The notes under the pieces were generated by a model. The model made no database searches, had not been told where the DNA came from, and saw only the letters and a list, made by a program, of their open reading frames with translations. From positions 11,866 to 75,865 of the forward strand of contig JAUSHB010000006.1 in the NCBI GenBank assembly GCA_030648955.1: a stretch of DNA of 64,000 nt, in the 5' to 3' direction. A program made the position numbers and the translations under genes. The stretch is from a bacterium (lineage in GTDB: Bacteria; Patescibacteriota; Minisyncoccia; Phycocordibacterales; JAUSHB01). Positions 6,702 to 21,181 of the stretch are shown here, one piece after another. Positions within the stretch are counted from its first letter, which is position 1, and each line of letters opens with the position of its first letter.

Positions 6702-6713
6702 AATACATTTATA

Positions 6714-8438
6714 TTACTCCCTCACCACCCTTAATATTTCCTCAATAGTGGTCATTCCCCGTTCAACTTTCCCGAGACCATCCTCAAACATTGTTACCAT
6801 TCCTTCACGAATCGCCACCTTGCGAATTTCCCCTACTGTAGCAACTTTCATAAGAAGCTCCCGAATCGCATTACTCACCTGGAACAACTCGAAGATACCA
6901 ATTTGTCCCGTAAACCCCGTATTGCCGCATACCTTGCACCCCTTACCACGATAGAGCGTAGTTGGTGTATTTTTTATATTACCTTCACCAAGTGTTTTTA
7001 TCTCCCCCACAATAAGATGATTTATTTCTGCGGGGATGGGGTATGACTCAACACATGATGTACATATCCTACGAACTAAGCGTTGAGCTATCACGAGATT
7101 CACGGTTGAAGAAAGTAGGAATGCGGGAGCACCCATATCAAGAAGACGGGGCAGGGCCGAGGGAGCATCATTCGTATGAAGAGATGAAAGCACTAAATGT
7201 CCCGTAAGGGCGGCATGGACTGCGATTTCTACTGTTTCATTGTCACGTATCTCACCAATCATTATGATGTCGGGATTTTGACGCAAAAGTGCACGCAGAC
7301 CATTAGCAAAGGTGATGCCTGATTTTGAATTTACCTGCGTTTGATTAATGCCGGATACTTGATATTCTATCGGATCCTCGATTGTCGTTATATTTACTTT
7401 TGTCGTATTCAAAATATTGAGCATTGCATAGAGCGTAGTTGTCTTTCCGTGTCCCGTAGGACCCGTAACCAATATCATTCCGTGGGGTTTTTTGATCTCC
7501 TCATCAATCCGAGTTTGCATTTTTTCAGGAACACCCAGGTCATCGAGAGTAAGTGGACGAGCGGAATTTTTCAATAGTCGCATTTCAACTTTTTCACCAT
7601 GGAATATCGGCATGATGTTGGTACGAATATCAATAGCTGTACCGTCCTCAATTTCAAAACGAAATCGTCCATCTTGGGGTGTTCTATGTTCATCGATTTG
7701 TAGGTTGCCAAGAATTTTCACCCGCGCAACAAGAATTGGCGCAATCGTTTTGGGAAGTGCTAATATTTCCTGCATGATTCCATCGATACGAAATCGTACC
7801 AGGAGAGCTTTTTCGAGCGGCTCAAAATGGATATCGGAAGCATTGAGTACCGCTGCATGCTCCACGATATTATCAAGGATCGCCACAATGGGAACCGCGG
7901 AAGCTGTTTTTGCCAAATCTGTATCACTGCTCACGGCAATTAAAAGTGACTTTTCTATGTTTTCAGATATTGTTTGATTAAATCCTACGCCAATTTTCTT
8001 TTTATATTGCCTAAGACCATATTTAAAGCTCGTAATCGTCATGAGATGTGTTTCTATCCAAACACCAAGTTTTGCGCGCAAGAATTCAATCGTATCAAGA
8101 TCGAGCGGATCAAGCATCGCGATTTTGAGAATTTTTTTAGTCACATCATGCTCAAAAGCAATAACGCTCTTTGATTTAGCGTAATTTTCTGAAACAAGCT
8201 CAAGTGTCTTTTGTGGAATATTGACCTTTTTAAGGTTTATGAGTGGAACTTCAAAATATGGAGAAAGAACTTCCGATAAGTATTCCTCTGAAATATATCC
8301 TTTCCCCATGAGAATCTCGGGAATTTCGCGTCCTGTTTTAAATGACTCATCACGAGCCAATTCAAAATCCTTATCAGTCACCACGCCGGATTCATTTAGT
8401 ATTTTTTTTAGGTTGTCGGTGGTAATGTGCATGCCCAC
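6714..8438 (-). CDS. pilB: Type IV pilus assembly ATPase PilB (GspE family)
   Basis: N-terminal GSPII_E N-domain. Walker A LVTGPTGHGKTTTL. Asp/His boxes. C-terminal tetracysteine CTSCV...CKVCGNTG. Confidence 0.9.
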   Translation of the reverse strand: MGMHITTDNLKKILNESGVVTDKDFELARDESFKTGREIPEILMGKGYISEEYLSEVLSPYFEVPLINLKKVNIPQKTLELVSENYAKSKSVIAFEHDVTKKILKIAMLDPLDLDTIEFLRAKLGVWIETHLMTITSFKYGLRQYKKKIGVGFNQTISENIEKSLLIAVSSDTDLAKTASAVPIVAILDNIVEHAAVLNASDIHFEPLEKALLVRFRIDGIMQEILALPKTIAPILVARVKILGNLQIDEHRTPQDGRFRFEIEDGTAIDIRTNIMPIFHGEKVEMRLLKNSARPLTLDDLGVPEKMQTRIDEEIKKPHGMILVTGPTGHGKTTTLYAMLNILNTTKVNITTIEDPIEYQVSGINQTQVNSKSGITFANGLRALLRQNPDIIMIGEIRDNETVEIAVHAALTGHLVLSSLHTNDAPSALPRLLDMGAPAFLLSSTVNLVIAQRLVRRICTSCVESYPIPAEINHLIVGEIKTLGEGNIKNTPTTLYRGKGCKVCGNTGFTGQIGIFELFQVSNAIRELLMKVATVGEIRKVAIREGMVTMFEDGLGKVERGMTTIEEILRVVRE

Positions 8439-8683
8439 ATATTATATCATGTGGTTTTATGCTCGCATATCCATAAAAATAATCATACGCATAAAGCCCT
8501 TCGAGCGTTTCTTTGTTATTTTGTTAGAAAATGATCATTTAATTTTTTCCCTAGGCTCGTTAAGACTTCGTAGCCCCTTCCAATTGTCTTAACATCTTCA
8601 CGACCGTGAAAGTATTCCGTGCGGGGTGATAATTTAATGTATGTGGTTTGATCTGTAGTGTATATTGTTTACCGTAAAAAGAC

Positions 8684-9364
8684 TTAGACCTTGAGGGCGG
8701 AAATATGAAAAAACGCCGTGGGATCACCAAATATTGACAGTACAAATATAGTCATGACCGAAAGTAGAAAAGAAATTCCAAGAGTGGTTCGAGATTCTTT
8801 GAGCACTTTCAGCCGATACATACTCATTATAACCGTATAGAAAAGTGCGCCGGGAATAAAGACAAGTACCCCTGGCCAGCCGGACAAAAGAGCACAGAGA
8901 AGTCCCAGTTCCATCTCCCCTTCTGCAAAGAAATGACCGCGATAGTTACGTAATAATCTAAGAAATGCATAGAACGCGAATGACACGAGAAGAAGGATTC
9001 CCACCCTTAACCAAAAACGACCGAGAACATAAAACATAAAATACCCGCCAGAATGGTTAAAAAACGGTCGAGTAAATTCAATCGCACTGGGGAAGGGTAC
9101 CGCCGTGCTCACGGGAGCAGTTACCAAAAATTTTGTCAATTCGGTTCCATTTTGCCAAACAGCATGCTGACCAAAAGTAAGCAAAAGAGAATACCCTATC
9201 ATAAATACTATCGTAAGAAATGAGAGTATCCAAAGACGCCGACGTAAAACACCCTCTCTTCCCTCTTTGTTCCTTAGAAATACTAGAGTCGTAAAAACTA
9301 AGAGTGCCGGAATTACGATGCGAGGTGCCCACAAGGCTATACTACTGATAACGTGATAATCCAT
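8684..9364 (-). CDS. Polytopic membrane protein, possibly a divergent prepilin-peptidase (A24/PilD)-like protein. The catalytic Asp pair is not evident
   Basis: About 7 predicted TM helices. Motif GHFFAEGEMELGLLCALLSGWPG resembles the PilD GGGDVKLLAxLG box but has Glu in place of Asp. Only two Asp in the whole protein. Position between pilB and the major pilin. Confidence 0.3.
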   Translation of the reverse strand: MDYHVISSIALWAPRIVIPALLVFTTLVFLRNKEGREGVLRRRLWILSFLTIVFMIGYSLLLTFGQHAVWQNGTELTKFLVTAPVSTAVPFPSAIEFTRPFFNHSGGYFMFYVLGRFWLRVGILLLVSFAFYAFLRLLRNYRGHFFAEGEMELGLLCALLSGWPGVLVFIPGALFYTVIMSMYRLKVLKESRTTLGISFLLSVMTIFVLSIFGDPTAFFHISALKV

Positions 9365-9458
9365 ATTATTTTATTATACACCAAAGCCCGCCTTGAAGGC
9401 GGGCTTTGGAAAAACTAAATCTTCTAAACTTCAAGGAACGTTTTATTGGACTATTGGA

Positions 9459-10127
9459 CTAGAAATCTACACCCGCGCCCAAAATTCTCAAGTTTGTTCC
9501 TACTTCGTAATAGTCGTTATTATTACCACCATCTTTTGTTCTTCTGTTATCAGTGCTTGTGTATTCAGTGCTTTCAAGTTGTGCGTTAATCTCAAAGTTG
9601 AGAGGATTCGCGGCGCATGCGTAGCGATATACGAGGTCAGTGCTTGCAACAGTACCAAGTGCTGCAATTGTATTAGTTGGATCTTGTGGAACATTTGAAA
9701 TTGGAGACCCACTAGTAAGAGAATCGAAACTTACTGGAATCCATCCCGTACCATCAGTAAGGGTTGGTGTTGCTGACTGACCTGAAACCACAACAATACT
9801 GCCATCAAGTGTTGTATCTGTAATCAGAGTACCAGAACCAAGCGAGTAAAAAATCTTGTCTCCAGCGATATATGCAGCAGTAGGGGATGCCTTACATGCC
9901 GTATTGTTTGCAACATCACCAAGATAAGGGGTCGATGTGCTGGTAATATAAAGACCGAGTGCTGTCTTGAGCGTGCTCAAGTCTGAAATTCGCTGTGCAT
10001 CTCGAGACTTCTTAAGCGTCTCTGCTGGGTTTATGACCAAAATAAGAGCGACTGACAAAATCGCAATAATTGCGATTACAATCAAAAGTTCAAGGAGTGT
10101 GAAACCATCTTTCTTTTCCCGTGACAT
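9459..10127 (-). CDS. Type IV pilin (major pilin candidate)
   Basis: Probable start at the second Met, giving a short leader MSREKKDG|FTLLELLIVIAIIAILSVALI. This is a canonical class III signal plus alpha1 helix. Ser/Thr-rich C-terminal domain. First gene downstream of a long promoter-containing intergenic region. Confidence 0.75.
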   Translation of the reverse strand: MSREKKDGFTLLELLIVIAIIAILSVALILVINPAETLKKSRDAQRISDLSTLKTALGLYITSTSTPYLGDVANNTACKASPTAAYIAGDKIFYSLGSGTLITDTTLDGSIVVVSGQSATPTLTDGTGWIPVSFDSLTSGSPISNVPQDPTNTIAALGTVASTDLVYRYACAANPLNFEINAQLESTEYTSTDNRRTKDGGNNNDYYEVGTNLRILGAGVDF

Positions 10128-10211
10128 AACATTTCCTGTGTACATAGTATAAAAAATTATTTTCTATTAAATTACCGAACTTATTAACTCATGTGCTCGA
10201 ATGCTCTTGCA

Positions 10212-10342: not shown

Positions 10343-10765
10343 TTATTGTCGTTCCGTATTCCCATTACTCCCCTTCCCGCCATTTTTTTCTAAATACTGC
10401 TTAACCTTACTGATTACTTCTCCGATTGAATAATCCACCTTAATAAGGTAGTCGACCGCGCCAAGTCCCATTGCACGATCACGGTCAGTTTGTTGACCTA
10501 GATTTGAAAGTGCGATTATGGGAATATTTGCTAGTTCTGGTTTCTTTTTTACCTCTTCTATCACCCAAAAACCATCACGTCCCGGTATCATAAGATCAAG
10601 GAGGATCAAGTCCGGTATTTCAATGGCGATCCCCGCAAAACCCGATGGACCATCTCGAAACACCTTAACATCTACATTTTCTTTCGCGAGTTTGATTTCA
10701 TAAACCTTTGAAATATGTTCGTCGTCTTCTATAATCACTATTTTTTTTCTTTTTTCTGTATCCAT
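10343..10765 (-). CDS. Stand-alone response-regulator receiver (CheY-like) protein
   Basis: KKIVIIEDDE... acidic pocket. Phospho-acceptor Asp in LILLDLMIPGRDG. Ser in IIALSNLG. Lys in DYLIK. No output domain. Confidence 0.85.
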   Translation of the reverse strand: MDTEKRKKIVIIEDDEHISKVYEIKLAKENVDVKVFRDGPSGFAGIAIEIPDLILLDLMIPGRDGFWVIEEVKKKPELANIPIIALSNLGQQTDRDRAMGLGAVDYLIKVDYSIGEVISKVKQYLEKNGGKGSNGNTERQ

Positions 10766-10826: not shown

Positions 10827-11243
10827 TTAGATGTACGAAACCACCTTTGAAACCAATGTATCTAAATCATAGGCACTTTTAACCAGGTAGTCAACCGCCC
10901 CCAACTCGAGGGCTCTTTTCTTTGAATCGTCTCCTCCTGATACTGATACTACGATAACTTTTTTATCTTTATATAAAGGGTTTTTCCTCATGAGTTCAAG
11001 GAAATTGAGACCGTTCATTCCAGGCAATAAAATATCGAGCCAAATGAGCACAACGCTATTATTTTCTTCGAGAACTTTAAATGCGTCCTCCGCATTAAAG
11101 GTAGTTGCAATAGTATAGCCTCTTTTGTTCAACTTAAGAACAATGGCTTTATTAAGAGCTACGTCGTCTTCGACAACAAGAATTGTTTTCACTTCGGTAG
11201 ATTTTTCAATCATGTGTTTAGTATACCACAAACTATAAATCAT
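10827..11243 (-). CDS. Stand-alone response-regulator receiver (CheY-like) protein; start may be the internal Met near 11213
   Basis: ILVVEDD, VLIWLDILLPGMNG (Asp), VIVVSVSGG, DYLVK. No output domain. Confidence 0.85.
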   Translation of the reverse strand: MIYSLWYTKHMIEKSTEVKTILVVEDDVALNKAIVLKLNKRGYTIATTFNAEDAFKVLEENNSVVLIWLDILLPGMNGLNFLELMRKNPLYKDKKVIVVSVSGGDDSKKRALELGAVDYLVKSAYDLDTLVSKVVSYI

Positions 11244-11354: not shown

Positions 11355-13829
11355 TCAGCTCATCTTCTGCGTAAGGGAAGGATGTTCGGGAACAGTAACA
11401 TTGAACGTTGTTCCCTTCCCTATTTCAGAATCAAACCACACCTTGCCTCCCCATGATTCGATTAATCCTTTTACTAACGAAAGTCCGAGCCCTGATCCAT
11501 CAGGAACCTTATTCAAGGCATTCTGAGCTCTGTAGAATTTTGAAAAGATTCTTGATTTTTCTTCATCCGGAATACCGATTCCATTATCTTGAACGCGACA
11601 GAGATATTCTCCTGCTCTTTTTTCAATACTTACGTTTATAATTCCGCCATTATTGGTGTATTGAATCGAGTTTGCAATCAGGTTCAAAAACACCTGTCGT
11701 AGCAATAATGGATCAAGGTCGATATCGGGGATATCTCCTTGTGGAAGTGAGACATTCATCGTAAGGGCTTTGGGGGAAAGTTGGGGTTTGAATTCTTCTA
11801 TAACTTCATTCATAAGTTTCACAATGTTCACCTTCTCCGTACTTTGCTTTAATGTTCCATTTTCTATTCTGGAAATTGATAACAAAAGATCGATTGTATT
11901 GTAAAGACGGAGTGTACCGCTATTGACCTCGGATGCAAAGTCTCTTTGCATTTCATTAAGAGGTCCCGCATCTTCTGAAAGAAGCATTTCGGAATACCAC
12001 CTAATTGAAGTAAGTGGCGTGCGTAATTGGTGCGATGCAATGGATATAAAACTTGATTTTGATTCATCGAGTGCTTTTTCTTTACTAATATCGCGAAACA
12101 CAATAACTGCGCCCATATCCTTATCTTTTACGAGCGGAGTAGCAAAAACTGCAACAGGAAATTCCTTTCCGGAATTTGTGCGAAATGAGTAGCGGTCTTC
12201 TAATCCAATCTCTATGGGCTGTTTCGTTGCAAGCACTCGCGCCATAAGACGATCGTCGTAGGGAATGTCCTTTCCATCTTTACGCGCCAAGATTACATCG
12301 TCTACCTTTTTCCCTATAATATCTTTCAAGGAAATATCAAGTATTTGTTCCGTCATCGGATTTGCAAGCGTTATAACATGTTCTTGGTTAACCAAAAAAA
12401 GTCCCTCGCCAACGGACGTAATAATCGACTGTAGCTCATTGCGTTGCAACTTAAATTTTTCTTTTAGCTCCCAAGCATCTTCGAGCACATTCACGGTTGC
12501 GCGTTTTGAATCTTCAAGGAATTTATTTTGTCGTTCGGTAGTTTCCAAGCTCGCCGCAAGGTCATGAGTTTTTTCAATCACTTTCTTTTCAAGATCAAAC
12601 TGAGCTTCATAGATGCGTACAAGCATGCGATTAAAAGCCCCCGCAAGGACTCCAATTTCATCATGCGTGCTTATGGTAAACAGGGGTAATATATTTGATT
12701 TATTTTTAATATCTATATGAGTCACAAAATCCGTTAGTCGCTTGAGGGGAGACACGACCAAAAAGGAAATGAGGAAATAAATAATCACACCGATGCCGAG
12801 AAGAAACGCAAGCCAGATCGCTATTAGATTCGTGATTTTATCCAAAAAGGCATATACCTCTCGCTTCTCTACCTCAACAAGAATCCATAGATTTAACGTT
12901 GGTGACCATGTATACCCACCAAGCACATTGACCGCATTGTGGTTGATATACTCTACGAGACCACTGTCGCCCACGAGTGGACTCCCTCTTCCCCAGAGTT
13001 CAAACGTAGCGCCAACCTCCTGAATGTTCTCATGATCCTCTGTATCGTGTACATGTTCTTCGGCAAGCACTTGCCCATTTTGAGAAATGAGGTAGAGCTC
13101 TGTGTGTGTTTGAAAAAAACCGGTAGATAAAAATGGCTTTGTAAATTCCCTCATGGGCACATCCCCCGCGAGAAATAATTTGGTTGAACCATTTTCTGTG
13201 AACAGGCGTGTAACAACAGTGACAACTTGATCATCATCACCCCCTTCGTTATATATCAAAAATGTTTCATCGTTAGAATGTATTGAACGTGCATGAGATC
13301 TGGTGTTTTTGTACAGATCCATGTACGTTTGCGATCCCTGTGATATGTCTGTGTTCATTGACACTATCAACTTTTCCCCAATTGCATCAAAAATGTAAAT
13401 ATTCGTAAATACCCCCGCCGTGTGAGCGTCCTTACCCACCATAGAGACCAAATATTCTCTTAGCGCATTTTGAACACCGAGCTTTGTTTTTGGTGGTGGC
13501 GTGTCTTCTTGACTAGGTATGCTATGCAACATTTCTACTATTTCTTTAGACCCTGTGAAGTTTGACTTGAAAACAATAAGGTGTCCTCCCAAATCCGCGT
13601 AGTAATCACTGATTGATTTATCTGCGATATCAACGGATATTTGCATCTTCTCGTGTATTTCATCTTTGCTAAATGAACTCACGCTCAAAAACATATAAAT
13701 ACCCGCGGCAAATAAAGGCAAAAATCCTGCGACTGCCACCAACGTTGCAAGTTTGTATGTAATACCGAAACGAACCCGCATTTCGGTATTTATTTTTCGC
13801 TGTTTCTTTTTATTGTTTTTAAAGATCAT
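11355..13829 (-). CDS. Sensor histidine kinase: two TM helices with a large extracytoplasmic (Cache-like) domain, HAMP, PAS, HisKA and HATPase_c
   Basis: H-box SIASHQLRTPLTSIRW (His codon near 12030). N/G boxes NLIANSIQYT...DNGIGIP...GSGLGLSLV. About 280-aa loop between TM1 and TM2. Confidence 0.9.
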   Translation of the reverse strand: MIFKNNKKKQRKINTEMRVRFGITYKLATLVAVAGFLPLFAAGIYMFLSVSSFSKDEIHEKMQISVDIADKSISDYYADLGGHLIVFKSNFTGSKEIVEMLHSIPSQEDTPPPKTKLGVQNALREYLVSMVGKDAHTAGVFTNIYIFDAIGEKLIVSMNTDISQGSQTYMDLYKNTRSHARSIHSNDETFLIYNEGGDDDQVVTVVTRLFTENGSTKLFLAGDVPMREFTKPFLSTGFFQTHTELYLISQNGQVLAEEHVHDTEDHENIQEVGATFELWGRGSPLVGDSGLVEYINHNAVNVLGGYTWSPTLNLWILVEVEKREVYAFLDKITNLIAIWLAFLLGIGVIIYFLISFLVVSPLKRLTDFVTHIDIKNKSNILPLFTISTHDEIGVLAGAFNRMLVRIYEAQFDLEKKVIEKTHDLAASLETTERQNKFLEDSKRATVNVLEDAWELKEKFKLQRNELQSIITSVGEGLFLVNQEHVITLANPMTEQILDISLKDIIGKKVDDVILARKDGKDIPYDDRLMARVLATKQPIEIGLEDRYSFRTNSGKEFPVAVFATPLVKDKDMGAVIVFRDISKEKALDESKSSFISIASHQLRTPLTSIRWYSEMLLSEDAGPLNEMQRDFASEVNSGTLRLYNTIDLLLSISRIENGTLKQSTEKVNIVKLMNEVIEEFKPQLSPKALTMNVSLPQGDIPDIDLDPLLLRQVFLNLIANSIQYTNNGGIINVSIEKRAGEYLCRVQDNGIGIPDEEKSRIFSKFYRAQNALNKVPDGSGLGLSLVKGLIESWGGKVWFDSEIGKGTTFNVTVPEHPSLTQKMS

Positions 13830-13865: not shown

Positions 13866-15545
13866 TTATGGTGAATTGAACTTCTTCTTAAGTTCTTCTA
13901 ATTCCTCCTTGATTTCAACCATCCGAAGTTCGCGACCAATCATCAATCGATTGGCTTCTTCAAGTTGAATCGTCTTTGATTTGAGCACTTCTTCATCTAT
14001 TTTATGTTTTGTAATATCGCGACAGTTACAAACAATGCCGTTGACGACAGGATTATTAAGGAGGTTTTTGCCCAGTGCTTCAATGGTGCGCCAAGTACCA
14101 TCCTTGTGGTGAAAACGAAATTCAACGGTGTGCGTTTCCTCTGGCTCTCCCACCACCTTTTCAAATGTCTTTTTTATCCCAGGGAGATCATCTTCGTGCA
14201 TATGCTCAAAAATCTTTTTTCCCTTGAGCTCATCCGGATTATACCCCAAGATTGCAGAAAAAGAGGGACTCGCATACGATACCGTACCATCTTTCCCGAT
14301 TACCGTGACCATATCAACGGAATTTTCACTGAGCGTTTGATAATATTTTTTTTCTATCTCGAGTTTTTCTTCAGTAATCTTATTTTCCGTTATGATGAAC
14401 TGTATGCTCACATATCCCGTAATAATCCCTTTCGTGCTGATTACGGGAACAATAATCGCGTCAACCCAATACAACGAATCATCCTTAGCTTTATTTTTAA
14501 TTTGTCCGTGCCAAACACGACCTTTCAAAAGATAGTTATGCCACATGTCATCAAAAAAAGCTTGCGGATGGAATTCTGAGCGTAACACGCGGTGATTATT
14601 TCCAATCAATTCCTCTCGAGAATATTTAGAGTTTTGAATGAACGTATCGCTTACATAAAAAATATTACCGCGTTCATCTGTTTGAGAAACAATGGCGATA
14701 GAATTCATTGCATCGAGAATCGTTTTAAAATTCTTGGGAAGTACATCCGGAGACGTGTTCTTGAGAACAAATGAGTGCACTGATGCTTCAACGATTGTTT
14801 CATGAAGAGAGGATGTGGTACTATCTTCACTGCGATAGCCAGAGAATTCTTCAACATGAATGTCGTCATGTGTAATCCCCATTTCCATAAGTGATGCCAA
14901 AGAAAACCGTACCATCCCTTCCGGTCCCGCTACATACCAAAGGGCATTTTTTTCGTTTTCTACAATCTTTTTCAACTCGTAGAGCGTAAGGTCTCCCTCA
15001 ATATACTGCACTGAAATATTTGGATTTCCTTGTGAAAACTCATCGAGATCTTTGCGATACGCCCTTGTTTCTTCGTCCTTGCTTACATAAAGTAGCGTAA
15101 TCCTATGAGGAAGTTTATTTTCATAAGAATACCGCAAGATACTCAAAAAGGGAGTAATACCGATGCCCCCGGCTATACACACAATGGGACGAGAACTGTC
15201 CTCTGGAATAAAGAAGGAGCCCAATGGATCACTTACGTGAACCACCGAACCAGTTGCCATTTCAAGAATGCTTTTTTTAAATCCGCTTCCGGAAATACGA
15301 AATGCTATCGTGATAACATCATGATTATTTGGTGATGATAAAATCGAAAAATCCCTTCCATTTCCCCTGGGATCCTGGAATATGAGGCTGGGAAGCATTA
15401 TGTGGACATATTGTCCCGGCGTAAAGGGTAATTCTTGTTCGACAATTTCTGACGACCCACCAACAGACTTACGACCAAAAGTAATCTCTATAGTTCCCCC
15501 AGCGACAACTCTTCGGTCTATGATTGGTAAATGATACTTAGACAT
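13866..15545 (-). CDS. Kinase-less sensor protein: N-terminal FNR-like FAD/NAD(P)-binding oxidoreductase domain, two PAS domains and a C-terminal conserved helix
   Basis: RDFSILSSP (RxYS FAD motif) and GGIGITPF (NAD(P) motif). Two PAS blocks (IAIVSQTDERGNIFYVSDTF...; DMVTVIGKDGTVSYASPSF...). C-terminal MIGRELRMVEIKEELEELKKKFNSP. Stop lies 36 bp before the HK start. Confidence 0.8.
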   Translation of the reverse strand: MSKYHLPIIDRRVVAGGTIEITFGRKSVGGSSEIVEQELPFTPGQYVHIMLPSLIFQDPRGNGRDFSILSSPNNHDVITIAFRISGSGFKKSILEMATGSVVHVSDPLGSFFIPEDSSRPIVCIAGGIGITPFLSILRYSYENKLPHRITLLYVSKDEETRAYRKDLDEFSQGNPNISVQYIEGDLTLYELKKIVENEKNALWYVAGPEGMVRFSLASLMEMGITHDDIHVEEFSGYRSEDSTTSSLHETIVEASVHSFVLKNTSPDVLPKNFKTILDAMNSIAIVSQTDERGNIFYVSDTFIQNSKYSREELIGNNHRVLRSEFHPQAFFDDMWHNYLLKGRVWHGQIKNKAKDDSLYWVDAIIVPVISTKGIITGYVSIQFIITENKITEEKLEIEKKYYQTLSENSVDMVTVIGKDGTVSYASPSFSAILGYNPDELKGKKIFEHMHEDDLPGIKKTFEKVVGEPEETHTVEFRFHHKDGTWRTIEALGKNLLNNPVVNGIVCNCRDITKHKIDEEVLKSKTIQLEEANRLMIGRELRMVEIKEELEELKKKFNSP

Positions 15546-15552
15546 ACATTCG

Positions 15553-17136
15553 CTATGATTTAGGGTTAAGTTTTTCGGTAAGCTGTAAAATTTCTTTTTT
15601 TAGCTCTATCATTCTCAATTCGCGCTCAATGGTAATCTTGTTTATTTTAGTAAGTTCATTAATAGTGTGCGTCATTTTTTCTTCCGCTTCTTTCTTTTCA
15701 ATTTTCTGAGCAATAATGCCTGCAACAGATTGAATAAACGAAACGTCCTGGGAAGAAAATGTTCTTCGTTTTATAGAGTACACACTAAGGACTCCATATG
15801 GCTTGCCGGTGTTTTTTGGAATAACGACACTTACGCCACTTGTTATACCATGTTCTGCTAAGTGAGGAGGTGCCTGAAAGCGCTGTTCTACTTTGAAGTC
15901 TGTAACAACAATTGGCTCATCTGAAAGAAATGTATATTCTACTTGCGAGTTTTTTCCCGCTTCGACAATAGTGTTCCCCAACATGCCTTCTCTCCATCCA
16001 GCGCCGATAACAAGACGCAACGCTTTGCCGTCAGGGAGAAGCTCAAGAATACTGACGTAGTCAACCCCTAAGCTTGCCCTAATCTTAGAAACCCCATCTT
16101 GCGTGAACACTTGAACATTCGATTCAGTAATCGCACTTCTGCTGAAGTCTGCCACAAATGCCTGCTGGCGAATACGTAACGAAACAGCTTTGTTTGTGTT
16201 TATAAGTCTTCGATTAATACTGCGCAACGCCAGCAAAACAATAACACCGAGTACGCTAATCAATGTGGCGTAAATTTTAATCTGATTGATTGCTTTAAAT
16301 ACATCACTTCGGTTTTCTTCAAGGATGACCAAAAATTGAGGGCCGGAAACATAGCCTCCCGCAGAGAGAACGCGAACACCTTTTTCATTTTTATACGTGT
16401 ATCTATCGTCAAGCGAAGATGTCGTTTGTTTTGCTTGAAGCGTATCGATCACAATACGCCGCGACATGTAGCCCGGGTTTTTAAGCACCAAGGATGTATC
16501 CGGATCGCTGATCAAAACTCCCTCACTGTCGACAATATATAGTTTTCCCGTTTGTGCAAGTTTAATACTCCCAACATCCTTAAACATTTCATTCACATTA
16601 AATTCAGCAGAAATAACACCGGCAAGAGCTTCATCTGATGTGTAGAAAGGAACACTGGCAATAATATGTGGCTCAAGGTTTGCTGAGATTGTTACAGAAG
16701 ACCATGCTGGTCTTCTGGTTGTTATCGCTTCCATAAAATTATGGCGCGTACTAATATTCTCATACGTGAGCAGATTCGTGGGTTTAAACTTATCAAACTT
16801 AATAATTTCTTTGCCGGAAGGATCGGTAAGAGAAACTGCCTTAACATTATCCCCCTTGAGTACGTTTTGTAGTACGAGACTATTTTCCTTAGCCTCAAGA
16901 TCCGGGATAATGTATTGAGACGATACCTGAAGTCCTAGAATATTATTTTCGAGAAATAACTTTATTCTTGATAGTGCGATTTCAATCGTACGTTCCTCAA
17001 CAATGTTTATGTTGCTCCGAAGAAGCGTAAGCGTAGGGAAAAGCCAAATAAGGTTACCGAGCACCACGAGAGAACCCAGGAATATGTATACGTGTGAAGA
17101 ATAATTGCTTTTTGTGGTGCCCATAGGCAGAATCAT
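15553..17136 (-). CDS. Kinase-less sensor protein: TM, extracytoplasmic double-Cache-like domain, TM, GAF domain and a C-terminal conserved helix
   Basis: Two TM segments flank an about 250-aa extracytoplasmic region. Cytoplasmic GAF-like block (...LGVDYVSILELLPDGKALRLVIGAGW...). C-terminal TIERELRMIELKKEILQLTEKLNPKS. Translationally coupled to its neighbours. Confidence 0.7.
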   Translation of the reverse strand: MILPMGTTKSNYSSHVYIFLGSLVVLGNLIWLFPTLTLLRSNINIVEERTIEIALSRIKLFLENNILGLQVSSQYIIPDLEAKENSLVLQNVLKGDNVKAVSLTDPSGKEIIKFDKFKPTNLLTYENISTRHNFMEAITTRRPAWSSVTISANLEPHIIASVPFYTSDEALAGVISAEFNVNEMFKDVGSIKLAQTGKLYIVDSEGVLISDPDTSLVLKNPGYMSRRIVIDTLQAKQTTSSLDDRYTYKNEKGVRVLSAGGYVSGPQFLVILEENRSDVFKAINQIKIYATLISVLGVIVLLALRSINRRLINTNKAVSLRIRQQAFVADFSRSAITESNVQVFTQDGVSKIRASLGVDYVSILELLPDGKALRLVIGAGWREGMLGNTIVEAGKNSQVEYTFLSDEPIVVTDFKVEQRFQAPPHLAEHGITSGVSVVIPKNTGKPYGVLSVYSIKRRTFSSQDVSFIQSVAGIIAQKIEKKEAEEKMTHTINELTKINKITIERELRMIELKKEILQLTEKLNPKS

Positions 17137-17137
17137 G

Positions 17138-18145
17138 TTAGTTTACAATTTGGGATGCAATACTTTTTATTTCTTCCGAAAACGTGACGCCGATTTCTTT
17201 CGCATTCTTAATACTCAACACAAAATCAATTTTACTCGGAGTTTCAAAAGGAAGTGCTCCGGGATCTTCTCCTTGGAGAACTTTCTCGGCGATACGCGCA
17301 AGTGATCTTCCCATGTCGGCGTAATCTGGTCCATATGAAGCAAGGGCTCCGCCATTGAGTGCTGCTTTGTCGGGCATAATGATTGGTAATTTATTCTCCC
17401 GCGCAACCTTGAGAAAGAGGTCCGACTGTGAAAAAAGCGTTCCGTGAGGATAGAACATGAGCGCGTCAAATTTTTTCCAATCCACACCCATAAAAGCGTC
17501 TTCAATTTCTTTTCGTCCCGGATTGGTAAGAGAAAATTCAGTTAGGGTAATGCCTAGTTTTTTACTTAATTCCTTGCCGATAGGTCGAGCTATCGCTGTA
17601 GGACCGCACGTAGTATCATAAAACATTGCAATATTTTTTATAGACGGAATCATTTTTTTGATAAGCTCAATCCGTTTGGGGGTAAGCTCAATACTTTGGT
17701 GCGAAATACCAGCAATATTGATTCCAGAACTTTGAATTGATTTAAAATACCCGTGAGCGATAGGATCTCCTAACGCAGTCAATATGGGGATAGTTTTTGT
17801 TTTATCCGCAAGATCAAATGTTGGTCTGGTAGAAATGGTGGCAATGAGATCTGGTTTTTCAGCAATAGCTTCATCAATATACGTTTTGAGTTTTTCCTTA
17901 CTTCCTTCAGTATTCTTATAATCAATGACGATACTTAATCCCTGCTCATGATGTATTTTCCTAATCTCTTTCATGAAACTATCCAAAAAAATCGTGAATG
18001 TTTCTCCGCCAGGATTTAATACCACAATGTGGTGAGTATGGACTGTTTCTTCCCCCCCTTTTATGCCCCCATGCTCGTAAACATACCATACTGCAATACT
18101 AAGAATAGAAAAAACGAGTACGATCAAAAATAATTTTTTAGGCAT
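17138..18145 (-). CDS. Membrane-anchored periplasmic-binding-protein-like protein; resembles the ABC_sub_bind family of substrate-binding proteins often found with two-component sensors
   Basis: N-terminal anchor helix. Two-lobed PBP-like sequence (…LTALGDPIAHGYF…IAGISHQSIELTPKRIELIKKMIPSIKNIAMFYD…). First gene of the sensor operon. No permease or ATPase partner nearby. Confidence 0.6.
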   Translation of the reverse strand: MPKKLFLIVLVFSILSIAVWYVYEHGGIKGGEETVHTHHIVVLNPGGETFTIFLDSFMKEIRKIHHEQGLSIVIDYKNTEGSKEKLKTYIDEAIAEKPDLIATISTRPTFDLADKTKTIPILTALGDPIAHGYFKSIQSSGINIAGISHQSIELTPKRIELIKKMIPSIKNIAMFYDTTCGPTAIARPIGKELSKKLGITLTEFSLTNPGRKEIEDAFMGVDWKKFDALMFYPHGTLFSQSDLFLKVARENKLPIIMPDKAALNGGALASYGPDYADMGRSLARIAEKVLQGEDPGALPFETPSKIDFVLSIKNAKEIGVTFSEEIKSIASQIVN

Positions 18146-18509: not shown

Positions 18510-19946
18510 ATGAACTTTATTAAAATTTTCACACGAGAGGAGTCAATCGCGGGTCTTGAAATAAGCGAGACTCATCTGAAGCTCGCGTTTCTAACCCTCG
18601 AAACTTCTCACAAAAAAGAACAGCCAACCCTACGTATCAAAGCACTCACCGAAGAACCTCTACCGGGGGGCACTATACAAGATGGCGAAGTTCTCGATAG
18701 AGAAGCATTGACAGCTTCCCTTATTAAACTCCTCAATAAATCACCGAGTGTTAAATATTTTATTGTTTCCATACCGGGGAATAAACTTTACCAAAAGATT
18801 TTTCCATTTCCCCAGACTATTTTAGAAGAGCGCCTTGTTGACGCGATGAAATTGGTGACGACATTCCAATTACCCTACGCGGAAGATACGGCCTATGTTG
18901 ATTGGGAAAAATCATCAAATAATCTGCACAATGAAGTTTTTCTTGCCACTGCCCCCAAGACTGTTGTCGAAGGATTTTTATCAGCACTTGATCGTGCGGG
19001 GGTCAAAACAGTTGCGCTCGAATCACACACAATGAGCTTGGCTCGAGTAGTAGAACATGAAGACCAACCTATTCTGGTATGTAACACCGGAAAAACAGAC
19101 ATCACATTCTCGGTGGTAAAAAATGGTATTCCACGATTTGAAAGAATCACCCCAATTTCTCTCTTGGGTGAAAAATCCATGAGTATGGAGATGGAAAAAA
19201 TTAAAAAATTTTATGAGGTTGAATGGAGGGAGGTAATTACGCGCGTAATTGAACTTCCCCATGTTTCGCTTTTTCACTCACTTGCGCTTGAGTTGAAACG
19301 TTTTGGCGGGGAGAATAATACAACAGCATGGGTAATTGCTCTTGGGGCAGCCATGCGCGGACTTCTCCCGCGAGCAGAAGATACCATCGTGAGCATGCTT
19401 CCCGTAGGTACCGAAAAAGCATATGAGTACCAGAAGGCGGTAGCATTTTCAAAATTTATCACCAACACCACAATCGGTCTTGCGCTATTCTGGACTGCAA
19501 TATTTTTCAGTTCGTGGATTCTTTTGTCGGCAATTCAACAAGATTCCAATAAAGAACTCTCGTCACTCTCATCGCTTCCCTCTTCAGCGGAAAACTTGGC
19601 TCTTGAAGATCGGGCGCACGAATTTAACGCACTCGCAAGGCGAGCAAATTCTATTATTGCCACATTTCCCGCATGGAGTATGGTTGTTGAGGATGTTAAA
19701 GCCCATAGCGTGAAGGGTATCACTATTACCAATGTTTCATTCGCCACCCCTGATTCACTTTTTTCATTAACCGGCATAGCCGCAACACGCGCCGATATTA
19801 ATATATTTAAAAAATCGATGGAAACTTCAAAGATTTTTACCGAAATGACCATTCCCCTTACAAACCTTGAACAACGAGCAAATATTTCTTTTTCAGCAAC
19901 ATTCCGCATGATCGATCCGAATGTCTTGTATCAAGGTAACAAGTAA
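18510..19946 (+). CDS. pilM: PilM-PilN fusion protein: actin-like ATPase-fold PilM domain, TM segment and PilN-like periplasmic tail
   Basis: N-terminus ...ESIAGLEISETHLKLAFLT matches the PilM start. Internal TM TTIGLALFWTAIFFSSWILLSAI at about aa 315. About 140 further residues follow. Confidence 0.8.
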   Translation: MNFIKIFTREESIAGLEISETHLKLAFLTLETSHKKEQPTLRIKALTEEPLPGGTIQDGEVLDREALTASLIKLLNKSPSVKYFIVSIPGNKLYQKIFPFPQTILEERLVDAMKLVTTFQLPYAEDTAYVDWEKSSNNLHNEVFLATAPKTVVEGFLSALDRAGVKTVALESHTMSLARVVEHEDQPILVCNTGKTDITFSVVKNGIPRFERITPISLLGEKSMSMEMEKIKKFYEVEWREVITRVIELPHVSLFHSLALELKRFGGENNTTAWVIALGAAMRGLLPRAEDTIVSMLPVGTEKAYEYQKAVAFSKFITNTTIGLALFWTAIFFSSWILLSAIQQDSNKELSSLSSLPSSAENLALEDRAHEFNALARRANSIIATFPAWSMVVEDVKAHSVKGITITNVSFATPDSLFSLTGIAATRADINIFKKSMETSKIFTEMTIPLTNLEQRANISFSATFRMIDPNVLYQGNK

Positions 19947-19959
19947 AAAAAACTTATTT

Positions 19960-20523
19960 ATGCTTACTCGACGACAACTTTTAATAACCCTGGGTAAACA
20001 TTTTTTTGTGATGATCACAGCCATCATCGTAGCATCTATTGCCATATCCATACTCAGTAGAAATATTACGTCAATCGGAGATTCCCTCATTGAAAAAAAA
20101 CGACTATCGATCATACTTTCCAAACGAGGCGAATATCTTTCGGGACTCAAGCGAGATTTTAATGTTGTGGGCGAAGCAGACAAAAGGATTATAGAAGCAT
20201 CCCCGCCTTCTGATAATATTCTCCCTTTTGTCGCCATTCTCGAAAACATAGCGGATCAGACATCAGTACAACAGTCGTTTAAATTTGGAATTCCATCGCT
20301 CACGGGTGAAAAACAAAACGGTATGGAAATCGCAACCATAGACTACTCAATTCGCGTAAACGGAAACGTACATACCCTGATTAATTATTTACAGCGGTTT
20401 GAGTCGCTCCCCTACTTTTCAACAATCTCAAGTATAACCATATCCGGAGGTGGAACACGGGGCTGGGAAGAAACTGCTCAGGCAACAATTGAAGCAAAAA
20501 TCTACACACTGTCGAATCAATAA
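19960..20523 (+). CDS. PilO-like type IV pilus inner-membrane assembly protein
   Basis: Start MLTRRQLLITLGKHFFVMITAIIVASIAISIL (single TM). About 150-aa periplasmic domain. Position after pilM/N. Confidence 0.55.
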   Translation: MLTRRQLLITLGKHFFVMITAIIVASIAISILSRNITSIGDSLIEKKRLSIILSKRGEYLSGLKRDFNVVGEADKRIIEASPPSDNILPFVAILENIADQTSVQQSFKFGIPSLTGEKQNGMEIATIDYSIRVNGNVHTLINYLQRFESLPYFSTISSITISGGGTRGWEETAQATIEAKIYTLSNQ

Positions 20524-20551
20524 ATACAATCTCTTACTTTATTAAAATACC

Positions 20552-21181
20552 ATGAAAGAGCGATATAAAATTAAATTAAAGGAGATCATAAAAGGAATCA
20601 CGTGGAAAAAAGTCTTCTACCCGACGCTTGTTAGTATTTTTGCACTTATTATTATTGTATTGTTCATATTTTCCGTACGCTTTATCTCTAAAAGTATCAA
20701 TCGAGTATTTATAAATGAGGAAAGTATTGAGGGTCAATTGCCACGTCTTGAACTTGATAGTTATTTACCTGTCGCAAAAAAATTAGGCATCCCGGTAAAC
20801 ACATTTGAACCATCACAGGAGCTCGGTGATGAATTTGTGGCAGAATCACAAATTCATACGCCCTCGAACTCATCCGCTACCAGTTCGCAGTATACTATCG
20901 ACAACATACAATCGCTTAAAATTGCCATATACAATAGCACTGATGTTCCTGGTCTAGCTCAAAATCTTAAGAATATTCTCAAAGAAAAAGGTTTTGAGGT
21001 GACCGAGACTGGCAATACGGAAAAGACGGGCGACCATACGCTGATTAAAATAAAAGAAAGTAAAAAGGACTCATTGGCGGAAGTAAAAACGATTGTTGGC
21101 GAACACTACAATATCGGTGAATCCCCTTTTCTTTCTGAAGATAGCGAATTTGACGTAATTATCATAATAGGAGATAAATAG
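20552..21181 (+). CDS. Membrane protein with a C-terminal LytR_C-like domain
   Basis: N-terminal TM. C-terminal block LKIAIYNSTDVPGLAQNLKNILKEKGFEV...DVIIIIGDK is typical of the LytR C-terminal domain. Confidence 0.5.
   Translation: MKERYKIKLKEIIKGITWKKVFYPTLVSIFALIIIVLFIFSVRFISKSINRVFINEESIEGQLPRLELDSYLPVAKKLGIPVNTFEPSQELGDEFVAESQIHTPSNSSATSSQYTIDNIQSLKIAIYNSTDVPGLAQNLKNILKEKGFEVTETGNTEKTGDHTLIKIKESKKDSLAEVKTIVGEHYNIGESPFLSEDSEFDVIIIIGDK

What the first reader, a model, noticed from the sequence alone, without database searches (positions are those of the whole stretch)
13866..17136. Two kinase-less sensor proteins end in a shared H-box-like helix with Arg in place of the phospho-His
The dCache-GAF protein (15553-17136) ends ...KITIERELRMIELKKEILQLTEKLNPKS. 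The FNR-PAS-PAS protein (13866-15545) ends ...RLMIGRELRMVEIKEELEELKKKFNSP. The last about 25 residues align at almost every position. The pattern is hMI.RELRM[IV]E[LI]K.E[IL]..L..K[LF]N[PS]. The two proteins share nothing else. The core ERELRM resembles the HisKA H-box of the adjacent kinase (SIASHQLRTPL): the same Leu-Arg spacing, but Arg sits where the phospho-accepting His would be. Both proteins stop about 18 residues later, so neither has a DHp helix 2 or a catalytic domain. Two interpretations fit. These may be degenerate pseudo-kinase sensors. Or the retained DHp-helix-1-like tail docks onto the dimerisation domain of the downstream histidine kinase and feeds its Cache/GAF and flavin/PAS inputs into that kinase. 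I know of no described mechanism of this kind, so this is inference.
Basis: partly seen in the sequence, partly recalled or inferred. Interest (0 to 1): 0.8.

Follow-up and report, generated by a model that had tools for sequence, protein, structure and literature searches.

The report
Sensor tail that plugs into kinases
The shared C-terminal helix of these two kinase-less sensor proteins is not a decayed kinase motif but a widespread, unannotated "plug" that nearly always sits next to a histidine kinase carrying a matching helical "socket" motif (A..LN.LED), which suggests that bacteria and archaea use it to attach separate sensors to a kinase.

Summary
Both proteins end in the same roughly 43-residue helix. 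Each scores about 54 bits against a profile built without them, and the next best hit in the window scores 4.6 bits.

The helix is not H-box-like. There is no HisKA hit, and hhalign gives 0.8% probability.

It is a large uncurated family, with 4,806 clusters at 50% identity in bacteria and archaea. It is almost always the last 10-45 residues of PAS, HAMP, GAF, Cache or REC sensor proteins. It was never seen on a kinase.

The new finding is its partner. The gene immediately downstream is a histidine kinase in 40 of 98 cases. Of those 40 kinases, 33 carry an equally unannotated helix motif, A..LN[IL]LED..EK (baseline 11/109).

The reverse test started from that motif in metagenomes. A tail gene lay directly upstream in at least 70 of 80 cases, against 2 of 39 control kinases.

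In this window the motif occurs once in all six frames, in the kinase directly downstream of the two tail proteins.

Best reading: the tail docks on the LN.LED helix and feeds trans-encoded sensor inputs into the kinase. The genomic coupling is shown. The physical contact is inferred. I found no description in Pfam, NCBIfam, the PDB or the searchable literature.

The parts
15556..15684 (-). Tail module 1: residues 485-527 of the TM-dCache-TM-GAF protein (EEKMTHTINELTKINKITIERELRMIELKKEILQLTEKLNPKS). It is an N-type tail with Glu at the usually-Gly position.
   Evidence: It scores 53.7 bits against an independent tail profile.
13869..14012 (-). Tail module 2: residues 512-559 of the FNR-like-PAS-PAS protein (...LEEANRLMIGRELRMVEIKEELEELKKKFNSP). 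AlphaFold2 predicts one continuous helix, 512-556.
   Evidence: It scores 53.8 bits. The AF2 model has a helix at 512-556 with pLDDT 81-85.
12450..12518 (-). Proposed socket: the single A..LN.LED motif of the histidine kinase (residues 438-460, SKRATVNVLEDAWELKEK). It lies in the long helix between HAMP and PAS.
   Evidence: This is the only N[LIVMF][LIVMA]ED in all six frames of the window. It scores 25.8 bits against the receptor profile, next best 3.6 bits. AF2 places it inside a continuous helix spanning kinase residues 401-472.
15553..17136 (-). Kinase-less membrane sensor: TM, dCache_1, TM, GAF, tail.
   Evidence: It is identical to an NCBI MAG protein named 'GAF domain-containing protein [bacterium]'.
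13866..15545 (-). Kinase-less cytoplasmic sensor: FNR-like flavin/NAD(P) domain, a disordered linker, PAS, PAS, tail.
11355..13829 (-). Histidine kinase: TM and periplasmic region, HAMP, the LN.LED helix, PAS, HisKA, HATPase_c. This is the proposed recipient of both tails.
17138..18145 (-). ABC_sub_bind solute-binding protein, first gene of the operon. No transporter genes are nearby, so it is probably a co-sensor.
   Evidence: The same gene occupies the same position in the syntenic locus L121.
10827..11243 (-). Single-domain response regulator 1.
   Evidence: It is conserved in L121 and L123.
10343..10765 (-). Single-domain response regulator 2.
   Evidence: It is conserved in L121 and L123.

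Best explanation
The shared tail is a self-contained C-terminal helical module. Its consensus is ELE[RK]F[NQ][KR]L.[VI]GREL[KR]M[IV]ELKKEI..LK. It serves as the output of sensor proteins that have no enzymatic domain.

Its function is to couple such a sensor, without a covalent link, to a histidine kinase that carries the complementary helical motif [QK][RK]A.LN[IL]LED...EK. That motif is present once, or as tandem 21-residue repeats.

In this window there are two sensors: a membrane dCache-GAF protein and a cytoplasmic flavin/PAS protein. I propose that each docks its tail on the single LN.LED helix between the HAMP and PAS domains of the kinase encoded directly downstream. The kinase would then integrate its own periplasmic input with two trans-encoded inputs and phosphorylate the two single-domain response regulators.

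The probable geometry is a helical bundle made of tail helices from a sensor dimer and LN.LED helices from the kinase dimer. In effect this would be a helix-loop-helix signalling bundle split in its loop.

Shown: the modules exist, their position within proteins, their mutual exclusion within a polypeptide, and their very strong two-way gene adjacency. Inferred: direct tail-to-LN.LED binding, the bundle geometry, and the direction of regulation.
For: (1) Family size and position.
- 4,806 representative clusters have E <= 1e-3.
- The match lies within about 10-45 residues of the C-terminus in 149 representatives and 129 genomic copies. The median distance from the end of the profile match to the stop codon is 7 residues.

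(2) It behaves as an output module on many different inputs. Among 103 members: PAS 63, HAMP 22, REC 7, plus CHASE4, dCache, PocR, GAF, CHASE, MASE3, CheR and CBS. Kinase-less FNR-PAS homologues all carry it, and FNR-PAS-HisKA-HATPase homologues do not.

(3) Forward adjacency in 120 genome loci from many bacterial and archaeal phyla.
- The immediately downstream same-strand gene is a histidine kinase in 40 of 98 cases. An upstream kinase occurs in only 5.
- 33 of those 40 kinases carry the LN.LED motif, against 0/29 and 11/80 kinases not selected by context (Fisher p = 6e-17).
- Five of the remaining 7 carry variants of the form A..N..[DQH]D.

(4) Reverse test. Metagenome loci were fetched only by a DNA pattern for Q[RK]A.LNILED. 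At least 70 of 80 motif-bearing ORFs with upstream sequence have a tail ORF ending at their start, against 2 of 39 control kinases in the same loci (p = 3e-19). Most apparent exceptions also have a tail just upstream; only L179 has no tail ORF on record, and three others (L131, L184, L187) have one only about 1.6 kb upstream.

(5) Stop and start codons often overlap by 4 nt (ATGA).

(6) Many partner kinases are 290-400 aa and consist only of LN.LED repeats plus DHp and CA, of either HisKA or HisKA_2 type. They have no sensor of their own.

(7) Mutual exclusion. 0 of 248 tail-bearing reading frames contain LN.LED or HATPase.

(8) Matched subtypes. N-type tails pair with single-repeat kinases (31/31). 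Q/R-type tails pair with multi-repeat kinases (92/101; p = 2e-22). Tail columns 17 and 20 track receptor column 16: QT with F, RT with Y, NM with V or I.

(9) The window obeys every rule: two N-type tails and one LN.LED copy, which is unique in 64 kb. Two syntenic CPR loci (candidate phyla radiation, Patescibacteria) keep the arrangement 'two tails then an LN.LED kinase then two response regulators', while the sensor domains differ (dCache only; TM only).

(10) Structure. The tail is a confident 45-residue helix. LN.LED lies in an exposed 72-residue helix. Both helices carry a heptad a/d stripe plus a second conserved face with one invariant small residue: G22, K26, E29 and E33 in the tail, and A8, N11 and D15 in the receptor.

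(11) A rare single-chain form, P0199, reads tail, then a 25-residue Pro/Gly linker, then LN.LED. That fits a helix-loop-helix. In two-tail proteins each tail is followed by a disordered linker, never by a rigid continuation.
Against: - No direct evidence of binding.
- Only about 58% (62/106) of tail genes with enough downstream sequence have an LN.LED gene within 3 kb, and 28% have no kinase nearby. L124 is one such orphan. Many tails must therefore act on partners encoded elsewhere, or do something else.
- LN.LED also occurs in kinases with covalently attached sensors and no known tail partner, for example P0059 and P0079. It is not exclusively a socket.
- The subtype matching could reflect shared ancestry rather than contact co-evolution.
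- The tail could bind the DHp or CA domain instead, with LN.LED being only a marker of that kinase lineage.
- The stoichiometry of two tail proteins to one motif in this window is unexplained.
Confidence: 0.62

Rival explanations
1. The tail does couple the sensor to the adjacent kinase, but it binds the DHp or catalytic domain, as the first reader proposed and as the inhibitors Sda and KipI do. The LN.LED helix is then only a lineage marker or an ordinary coiled-coil linker of those kinases.
For: The same adjacency statistics apply. LN.LED also occurs in kinases with fused sensors.
Against: Partner kinases have different DHp types (HisKA SHDLQEPL, HisKA SHDLRAPL and HisKA_2 HHRVKNNL), yet all share LN.LED. 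The conserved element common to the partners is therefore LN.LED and not the DHp. Tail subtype also tracks LN.LED residue identity and repeat number. The tail has no profile similarity to DHp helix 1.
Confidence: 0.15
2. The tail is only a homodimerising coiled-coil cap that stabilises sensor dimers. Linkage to kinases arises because sensor genes generally sit near two-component genes.
For: The tail has a heptad a/d stripe. Weak hits to designed coiled coils appear in the PDB search. 28% of tail genes have no kinase nearby.
Against: A generic cap would not keep invariant polar residues (R23, E24, K31, G22) across bacteria and archaea. It would not be specifically followed by kinases with one particular motif (33/40 against 11/109), with a strict upstream-to-downstream order (40 downstream, 5 upstream) and a reverse association near 90-97%.
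Confidence: 0.1
3. Degenerate pseudo-kinase: the tail is the remnant of DHp helix 1 (H-box with Arg for His) left after loss of the kinase core.
For: Local resemblance of xRELRM to SHELRTPL or SHQLRTPL. MAFFT places the tail opposite the H-box region of kinase homologues.
Against: No HisKA-family hit at E <= 10. hhalign probability is 0.8%. In the alignment the offset from the PAS 'DIT' motif differs by 8 residues. The module is found on thousands of proteins of unrelated architecture with a conserved stop codon, in both domains of prokaryotic life. It is followed by disordered linkers when internal.
Confidence: 0.03
4. The tail recruits something other than a kinase, for example a conserved cellular partner, a membrane or a degradation machine. 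The kinase linkage holds for only one subfamily.
For: Orphan tail genes exist. A few tails carry an extra ~90-residue extension.
Against: No other recurrent neighbour family emerged. The largest non-kinase neighbour clusters were truncated PAS/kinase genes, further tail proteins, and what by eye look like CheR, solute-binding and FIST proteins, placed between the tail gene and a kinase. The linkage holds for N-, Q- and R-type tails.
Confidence: 0.1

Closest known systems
Stand-alone sensor proteins that regulate an adjacent histidine kinase in trans (H-NOX with HnoK/HahK; MopJ with DivJ and CckA in Caulobacter, PMC4432633 and PMC4620464; periplasmic LuxP-LuxQ and TorT-TorS). The H-NOX and LuxP/TorT examples are from general knowledge.
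   Same: A sensor without an enzymatic output is encoded next to a kinase and controls it by protein-protein contact. The partner kinase is often sensor-less.
   Different: Those pairs use idiosyncratic domain-domain interfaces. Here a roughly 40-residue portable helix is appended to at least a dozen unrelated sensor types. It is matched with a portable motif on kinases of different DHp classes, across bacteria and archaea.
HisKA / DHp helix 1 (Pfam PF00512)
   Same: Helical, follows a PAS 'DIT' boundary, and contains an E-L-R tripeptide.
   Different: No profile similarity. No His, no helix 2, no CA domain. The protein terminates instead.
Signalling helix (S-helix; Anantharaman, Balaji and Aravind 2006, recalled from memory) and HAMP four-helix bundles
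   Same: Conserved coiled-coil segments of signalling proteins with polar residues in core positions. Many tails are preceded by an 'ERT'-type S-helix after HAMP. A tail plus LN.LED bundle would resemble a HAMP or DHp four-helix bundle.
   Different: S-helix and HAMP are intramolecular connectors between two domains of one chain. The tail is terminal and its proposed partner helix is in another polypeptide.
Split histidine kinases (for example Hik36-Hik43, PMC7656254; modelled in PMC3591291)
   Same: One signalling unit is divided between two adjacent genes.
   Different: Those are split between DHp and CA, or within CheA-like modules. Here the kinase core is intact and the split lies between sensor and kinase.
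Anti-kinase proteins Sda and KipI (general knowledge)
   Same: Small helical elements that act on a kinase in trans.
   Different: They are lineage-restricted inhibitors that bind DHp or CA. They are not sensor-attached modules with a dedicated receptor motif.
Dockerin-cohesin and leucine-zipper pairing (analogy only)
   Same: Small complementary modules let many different proteins plug into a common scaffold. Tandem socket repeats occur (1-8 LN.LED repeats).
   Different: Unrelated in sequence and in biological context.

Membership tests
HisKA / DHp phospho-acceptor domain (PF00512 and relatives) | Significant match to a HisKA, HisKA_2 or HisKA_3 profile | tested here: not met
   hmmscan of both tails finds none even at E <= 10. 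hhalign of the tail profile against a HisKA profile gives probability 0.8%.
HisKA / DHp phospho-acceptor domain (PF00512 and relatives) | Conserved phospho-acceptor His in the H-box | tested here: not met
   No His occurs in the conserved core of either window tail or of the 55 aligned family members, where the invariant residues are N, R, E, E, K and L.
HisKA / DHp phospho-acceptor domain (PF00512 and relatives) | A second helix completing the hairpin, followed by an HATPase_c domain | tested here: not met
   The stop codon comes 17-18 residues after RELRM. 0 of 248 tail-bearing frames contain HATPase.
C-terminal 'GRELxMxELK' tail module (unnamed; defined here) | Match to the family profile | tested here: met
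   53.7 and 53.8 bits against a profile built without the window sequences.
C-terminal 'GRELxMxELK' tail module (unnamed; defined here) | Terminal position: the match ends within about 45 residues of the stop codon, after one or more sensor domains, in a protein without an enzymatic output | tested here: met
C-terminal 'GRELxMxELK' tail module (unnamed; defined here) | A same-strand downstream histidine kinase carrying A..LN.LED | tested here: met
   The kinase at 11355-13829 has the only such motif in the window.
C-terminal 'GRELxMxELK' tail module (unnamed; defined here) | Physical binding of the tail to the kinase | not testable with these tools
S-helix (signalling helix) | Lies between two globular signalling domains of one polypeptide | tested here: not met
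   The tail is terminal, or is followed by a disordered linker. The definition of the family is recalled from memory.
Trans-acting accessory sensor of a histidine kinase (H-NOX/HnoK-like logic) | A stand-alone sensor encoded in an operon with the kinase it regulates | tested here: met
   The gaps between the sensory genes are 1, 7 and 36 nt (coordinates). Synteny is conserved in L121 and L123.
Trans-acting accessory sensor of a histidine kinase (H-NOX/HnoK-like logic) | The sensor changes kinase autophosphorylation in response to a ligand | not testable with these tools
   This needs biochemistry.
Split histidine kinase (DHp and CA on separate proteins) | The kinase core is divided between two polypeptides | tested here: not met
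   The downstream kinase has both HisKA and HATPase_c, as do the short partner kinases.

The most novel reading that the evidence does not exclude
The tail (plug) and the LN.LED repeat (socket) are a universal, portable docking pair of prokaryotic two-component signalling. Any sensor module can be wired without a covalent link to a kinase. Arrays of 1-8 sockets let one kinase integrate several trans-encoded sensors, including orphan tail proteins encoded elsewhere in the genome. This would be a previously unrecognised layer of signalling architecture, present in thousands of protein families from CPR bacteria to methanogens. It would also be a ready-made, orthogonal part for synthetic rewiring of sensors.
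Probability: 0.45. Interest if true: 0.88.

Novelty: new variant of a known kind. Interest (0 to 1): 0.78.

Why it matters
- **Annotation.** Very many prokaryotic 'PAS domain S-box', 'GAF domain-containing' and 'HAMP domain' proteins have no recognisable output and are annotated as dead ends. Many short histidine kinases have no recognisable input. This finding pairs the two classes through two short motifs that no domain database models.
- **Prediction.** If the docking model holds, it gives a rule for predicting which sensor talks to which kinase.
- **Signal integration.** It explains how one kinase can integrate several signals. Here those would be periplasmic, membrane Cache/GAF and flavin/PAS redox inputs, in an operon embedded in a type IV pilus cluster of a CPR bacterium.
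- **Engineering.** It would offer a compact natural plug-and-socket for building sensors.
- **Testability.** The claim can be tested directly with multimer prediction and simple binding assays.

Tried and rejected
- The word-indexed protein search with the 43-residue two-sequence tail alignment found nothing: 1 candidate, none scored. That search was wasted. The exhaustive HMMER search was what worked.
- Homologues of the dCache-GAF protein share only the GAF domain, and none has the tail. The tail is therefore not tied to GAF.
- Pfam and NCBIfam have no model for the tail or for the LN.LED repeats.
- PDB sequence searches with the tail profiles and with an LN.LED repeat array gave only generic coiled-coil noise or nothing.
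- The viral contig scan for the tail pattern returned 0 hits.
- Seven literature searches found no description: motif strings and concepts, plus a look into PMC5847659. These cover only the open-access corpus.
- I tried to get an intramolecular tail-kinase model by translating through the 36-nt in-frame intergenic region.
- The first metagenome scan and one structure poll failed on machine errors and were repeated.
- A greedy ORF caller mislabelled some loci, with tail ORFs displaced by longer antisense frames. I therefore redid the statistics on raw six-frame segments.
- Programmed frameshift or read-through making a fused protein was considered and rejected. The stop is conserved across phyla, the frames differ (ATGA overlaps), and single-chain tail-plus-LN.LED proteins are very rare: 2 of 149 representatives, and 0 of 248 frames.


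Full report
**1. What is in the window**

On the minus strand there is a tight operon:
- ABC_sub_bind solute-binding protein, 17138-18145.
- TM-dCache_1-TM-GAF protein, 15553-17136, 527 aa.
- FNR-like (NAD_binding_1)-PAS-PAS protein, 13866-15545, 559 aa.
- Histidine kinase with TM region, HAMP, PAS, HisKA and HATPase_c, 11355-13829, 824 aa.
- Two single-domain response regulators, 10827-11243 and 10343-10765.

The gaps between the first four genes are 1, 7 and 36 nt.

BLASTP aligns nothing but the tails. The tails share 16 identical positions in 43 columns, including RELRM. RELRM.E[LI]K occurs only in these two places in all six frames. Against a profile built from 53 other family members, the tails score 53.7 and 53.8 bits. 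The next best reading frame in the window scores 4.6 bits.

**2. It is not an H-box**

hmmscan of the tails finds no HisKA-type family even at E <= 10. A profile of 55 tails compared with a profile of 25 HisKA domains by hhalign gives probability 0.8% and no aligned stretch. In an alignment of the FNR-PAS protein with its kinase-bearing homologues, the Arg that would replace His lies 8 residues further from the PAS 'DIT' boundary than the real His does. That is neither the same position nor a whole heptad. The resemblance rests on the tripeptide E-L-R.

**3. It is a very large, uncurated family of terminal modules**

An exhaustive HMMER search of 1.84 billion representative proteins with the two-tail profile returned 4,806 clusters at E <= 1e-3. 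In the best 150, the match almost always ends within 10-45 residues of the C-terminus. The consensus is ..L....ELE[RK]F[NQ][KR]L.[VI]GREL[KR]M[IV]ELKKEI..LK, with N, R, E, E, K and L invariant in a 55-sequence alignment.

Pfam domains on 103 members are PAS (63), HAMP (22), REC (7), CHASE4, dCache, PocR, GAF, CHASE, MASE3, CheR and CBS. No kinase or cyclase domain appears among the 25 commonest families. My own HATPase and HisKA profiles hit none of the 149.

The sixteen kinase-less homologues of the FNR-PAS protein that match the motif pattern (400-660 aa, mostly Patescibacteria) all end in it, within 8-28 residues of the C-terminus. The FNR-PAS-...-HisKA-HATPase homologues (750-940 aa) lack it. 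Homologues of the GAF protein share only GAF. The tail is therefore an alternative to an enzymatic output, grafted onto any kind of sensor.

The loci come from:
- Bacteria: Patescibacteria, Bacteroidota, Acidobacteriota/Aminicenantes, Nitrospirota, Desulfobacterota/Geobacter, Omnitrophota, Verrucomicrobiota, Chloroflexota, Actinomycetota, Gammaproteobacteria.
- Archaea: Methanotrichaceae, Altiarchaeales, Thermoplasmatales, Woese-, Aenigm- and Nanoarchaeota.

Of 129 copies, all but two lie 8-47 residues before a stop codon. Neither Pfam-A (2025) nor NCBIfam (2026) has a model. No PDB chain contains it. Seven full-text searches found no description.

**4. The partner**

I called ORFs in the 120 loci and scanned them with my own HATPase, HisKA and REC profiles. 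The gene immediately downstream on the same strand is a histidine kinase for 40 of the 98 tail genes that have a downstream neighbour. Only 5 have a kinase upstream. Start and stop codons often overlap by 4 nt.

These kinases share a motif that I had noticed in the window kinase, A..N[ILVM][LVM]ED. It is typically E.TQRA.LNILEDF..EK..L, and often forms tandem 21-residue repeats at the N-terminus of 290-400 aa kinases that have no sensor domain. The DHp downstream of the repeats can be HisKA or HisKA_2. No Pfam family covers the repeats.

With a profile of the motif, the counts of kinases carrying it are:

| Kinase set | With LN.LED |
|---|---|
| Immediately downstream of a tail gene | 33/40 |
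| Two genes downstream | 10/13 |
| Upstream | 0/5 |
| Unselected, GAF-homologue set | 0/29 |
| Unselected, PAS/FNR set | 11/80 |

Fisher's test for 33/40 against 11/109 gives p = 6e-17. Five of the seven 'negative' downstream kinases carry variants, such as LALLNLVDDLN, RAMINLLQDLK and RAAMNMMQDMD. None of the 109 tail ORFs contains the motif.

**5. Reverse test**

I fetched 120 metagenome loci using only a DNA pattern for Q[RK]A.LNILED. Among motif-bearing ORFs with at least 300 nt of upstream sequence, 70 of 80 have a tail ORF whose stop lies within -200 to +400 nt of their open frame. The control is 2 of 39 HATPase ORFs without the motif in the same loci (p = 3e-19).

Six of the ten apparent exceptions have a tail ORF ending 47-116 nt before the first repeat. 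Three have one about 1.6 kb upstream of the motif (only partly accounted for by the kinase's roughly 400-residue N-terminal region). Only L179 lacks one. Kinases carry 1-8 repeats, most often 3.

Across both data sets, 0 of 248 tail-bearing reading frames also contain LN.LED or HATPase. The two motifs are thus almost mutually exclusive within a polypeptide and almost obligatorily adjacent between polypeptides, in a fixed order.

In the forward direction the link is looser. Of tail genes with enough downstream sequence, 62 of 106 have an LN.LED gene within 3 kb, 14 have a kinase scored as lacking it, and 30 have none. Orphan tails therefore exist.

**6. Matched subtypes**

In 141 non-redundant adjacent pairs:
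- Tails with Asn at column 17 always pair with single-repeat kinases (31/31).
- Tails with Gln or Arg pair with multi-repeat kinases (92/101; p = 2e-22).
- Tail columns 17 and 20 track receptor column 16: QT with Phe, RT with Tyr, NM with Val or Ile.

Shared ancestry could contribute to this. It is still what cognate interfaces look like.

**7. The window fits every rule**

Its two tails are N-type. The kinase directly downstream has one LN.LED copy (residues 438-460, SKRATVNVLEDAWELKEK; 25.8 bits). This is the only match to N[LIVMF][LIVMA]ED in all six frames of the 64 kb.

Two syntenic CPR loci with about 38-52% protein identity keep the same layout:
- L121: SBP, dCache-tail, FNR-PAS-PAS-tail, kinase (KKAMLNILED), RR, RR.
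- L123: a 182-aa TM-only protein with a tail, FNR-PAS-tail, kinase (KIATMNVLED), RR, RR.

The sensor domains change but the tails and the socket stay. A third homologue, L124, is an orphan.

**8. Structure and geometry (inference from here on)**

- AF2 models the FNR-PAS-PAS protein at mean pLDDT 80.5. The tail is one helix, 512-556, with pLDDT 81-85, so it is not disordered.
- AF2 of kinase residues 400-824 (mean pLDDT 83.1) puts LN.LED inside a continuous helix covering residues 401-472 that leads into PAS.
- Column statistics show that each helix has a canonical a/d hydrophobic stripe. In the tail, the invariant Arg of GRE sits in that stripe.
- Each helix also has a second, highly conserved face containing an invariant small residue. 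In the tail this face is G22, K/R26, E29 and E33, flanked by V21, L25 and I28. In the receptor it is A8, N11 and D15, flanked by L10 and E14.
- Two faces per helix suggest a bundle of more than two helices. A small residue opposite a small residue, with complementary charges, suggests a tight helix crossing.
- One rare protein, P0199, contains tail, a 25-residue Pro/Gly linker and LN.LED in a single chain. In proteins with two tails, each tail is followed by a disordered linker and then a fresh sensor module.

The simplest model is a helix-loop-helix signalling bundle, comparable to HAMP or DHp in a dimer, split in its loop. The sensor dimer supplies two tail helices and the kinase dimer supplies two LN.LED helices.

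**9. What is shown and what is not**

Shown: the tails, the family, its terminal position, its association with sensor domains, the LN.LED motif, and the strong ordered two-way adjacency, including in this window.

Inferred: that the two helices touch, the bundle geometry, and how a signal changes kinase activity.

Unexplained:
- Why two tail proteins face one socket here.
- What orphan tails do.
- What LN.LED does in kinases with covalent sensors, such as P0059 and P0079.

The main rival is that the tail binds elsewhere on the kinase. That rival keeps the biological conclusion (trans-encoded sensors feeding a kinase) and changes only the interface.

**10. Comparison and novelty**

The logic of an accessory sensor regulating a kinase in trans is known from H-NOX/HnoK, MopJ and periplasmic binding proteins. 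The following appear to be new, as far as Pfam, NCBIfam, the PDB and the searchable literature show:
- A portable terminal helix used by many sensor types.
- A portable, repeatable receptor motif on kinases of different classes.
- The distribution of both across bacteria and archaea.

I rate this as a new variant of a known kind. There is a substantial chance that it is a general plug-and-socket system, which would deserve a category of its own.

Noticed in passing
window 5484-10145 and 18510-21181: The sensory operon is embedded in a type IV pilus cluster: PilM_2 (18510-19946, +), a LytR_C protein (20552-21181, +), a pilin with an N_methyl motif (9459-10145, -), a T2SSE/MshEN ATPase (6714-8438, -) and T2SSF (5484-6701, -). 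The same arrangement flanks the syntenic operon in L121. The system may therefore control pili in this CPR lineage.
   Followed up: partly
window 17138-18145: An ABC_sub_bind solute-binding protein heads the operon, with no permease or ATPase genes nearby. The same gene is conserved in L121. It is probably a periplasmic co-sensor for the dCache protein or the kinase.
   Followed up: no
L051, L070 (genome loci) and protein P0238: In a few proteins the tail is not terminal. It is followed by a conserved ~90-residue extension (W..KF.EG..LEE..I..L.D.Y...) of unknown nature.
   Followed up: no
protein P0199 (945 aa) and P0217 (356 aa): These are rare single-chain combinations. P0199 has a tail, a 25-residue Pro/Gly linker, LN.LED, PAS-PAS and a second tail. 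P0217 has LN.LED about 35 residues upstream of the tail in one helix.
   Followed up: partly
L020, L024, L012, L036 and many of L125-L244: These are short (290-400 aa) histidine kinases made only of 2-8 tandem 21-residue LN.LED repeats plus DHp-CA. The DHp can be HisKA or HisKA_2. No Pfam model covers the repeats.
   Followed up: yes
L003, L028, L043, L053, L056, L084, L111 (genome loci): Two tail-bearing genes lie close together in one locus, as in this window. Several sensors may converge on one kinase.
   Followed up: partly
window 13866-15545; proteins P0040-P0140: A Patescibacteria-wide family fuses a ferredoxin-NADP-reductase-like flavin/NAD(P) domain to PAS domains. It occurs either with a kinase (750-940 aa) or with the tail (400-660 aa). 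It is probably a redox or NAD(P)H sensor. AF2 shows a disordered linker at 236-274 between the FNR and PAS parts.
   Followed up: partly
L027, L089, L094, L016, L013, L042 (genome loci): In some loci another gene sits between the tail gene and the kinase. By eye these look like FIST-like, NMT1/solute-binding-like or CheR-like proteins. They were not confirmed with Pfam.
   Followed up: no
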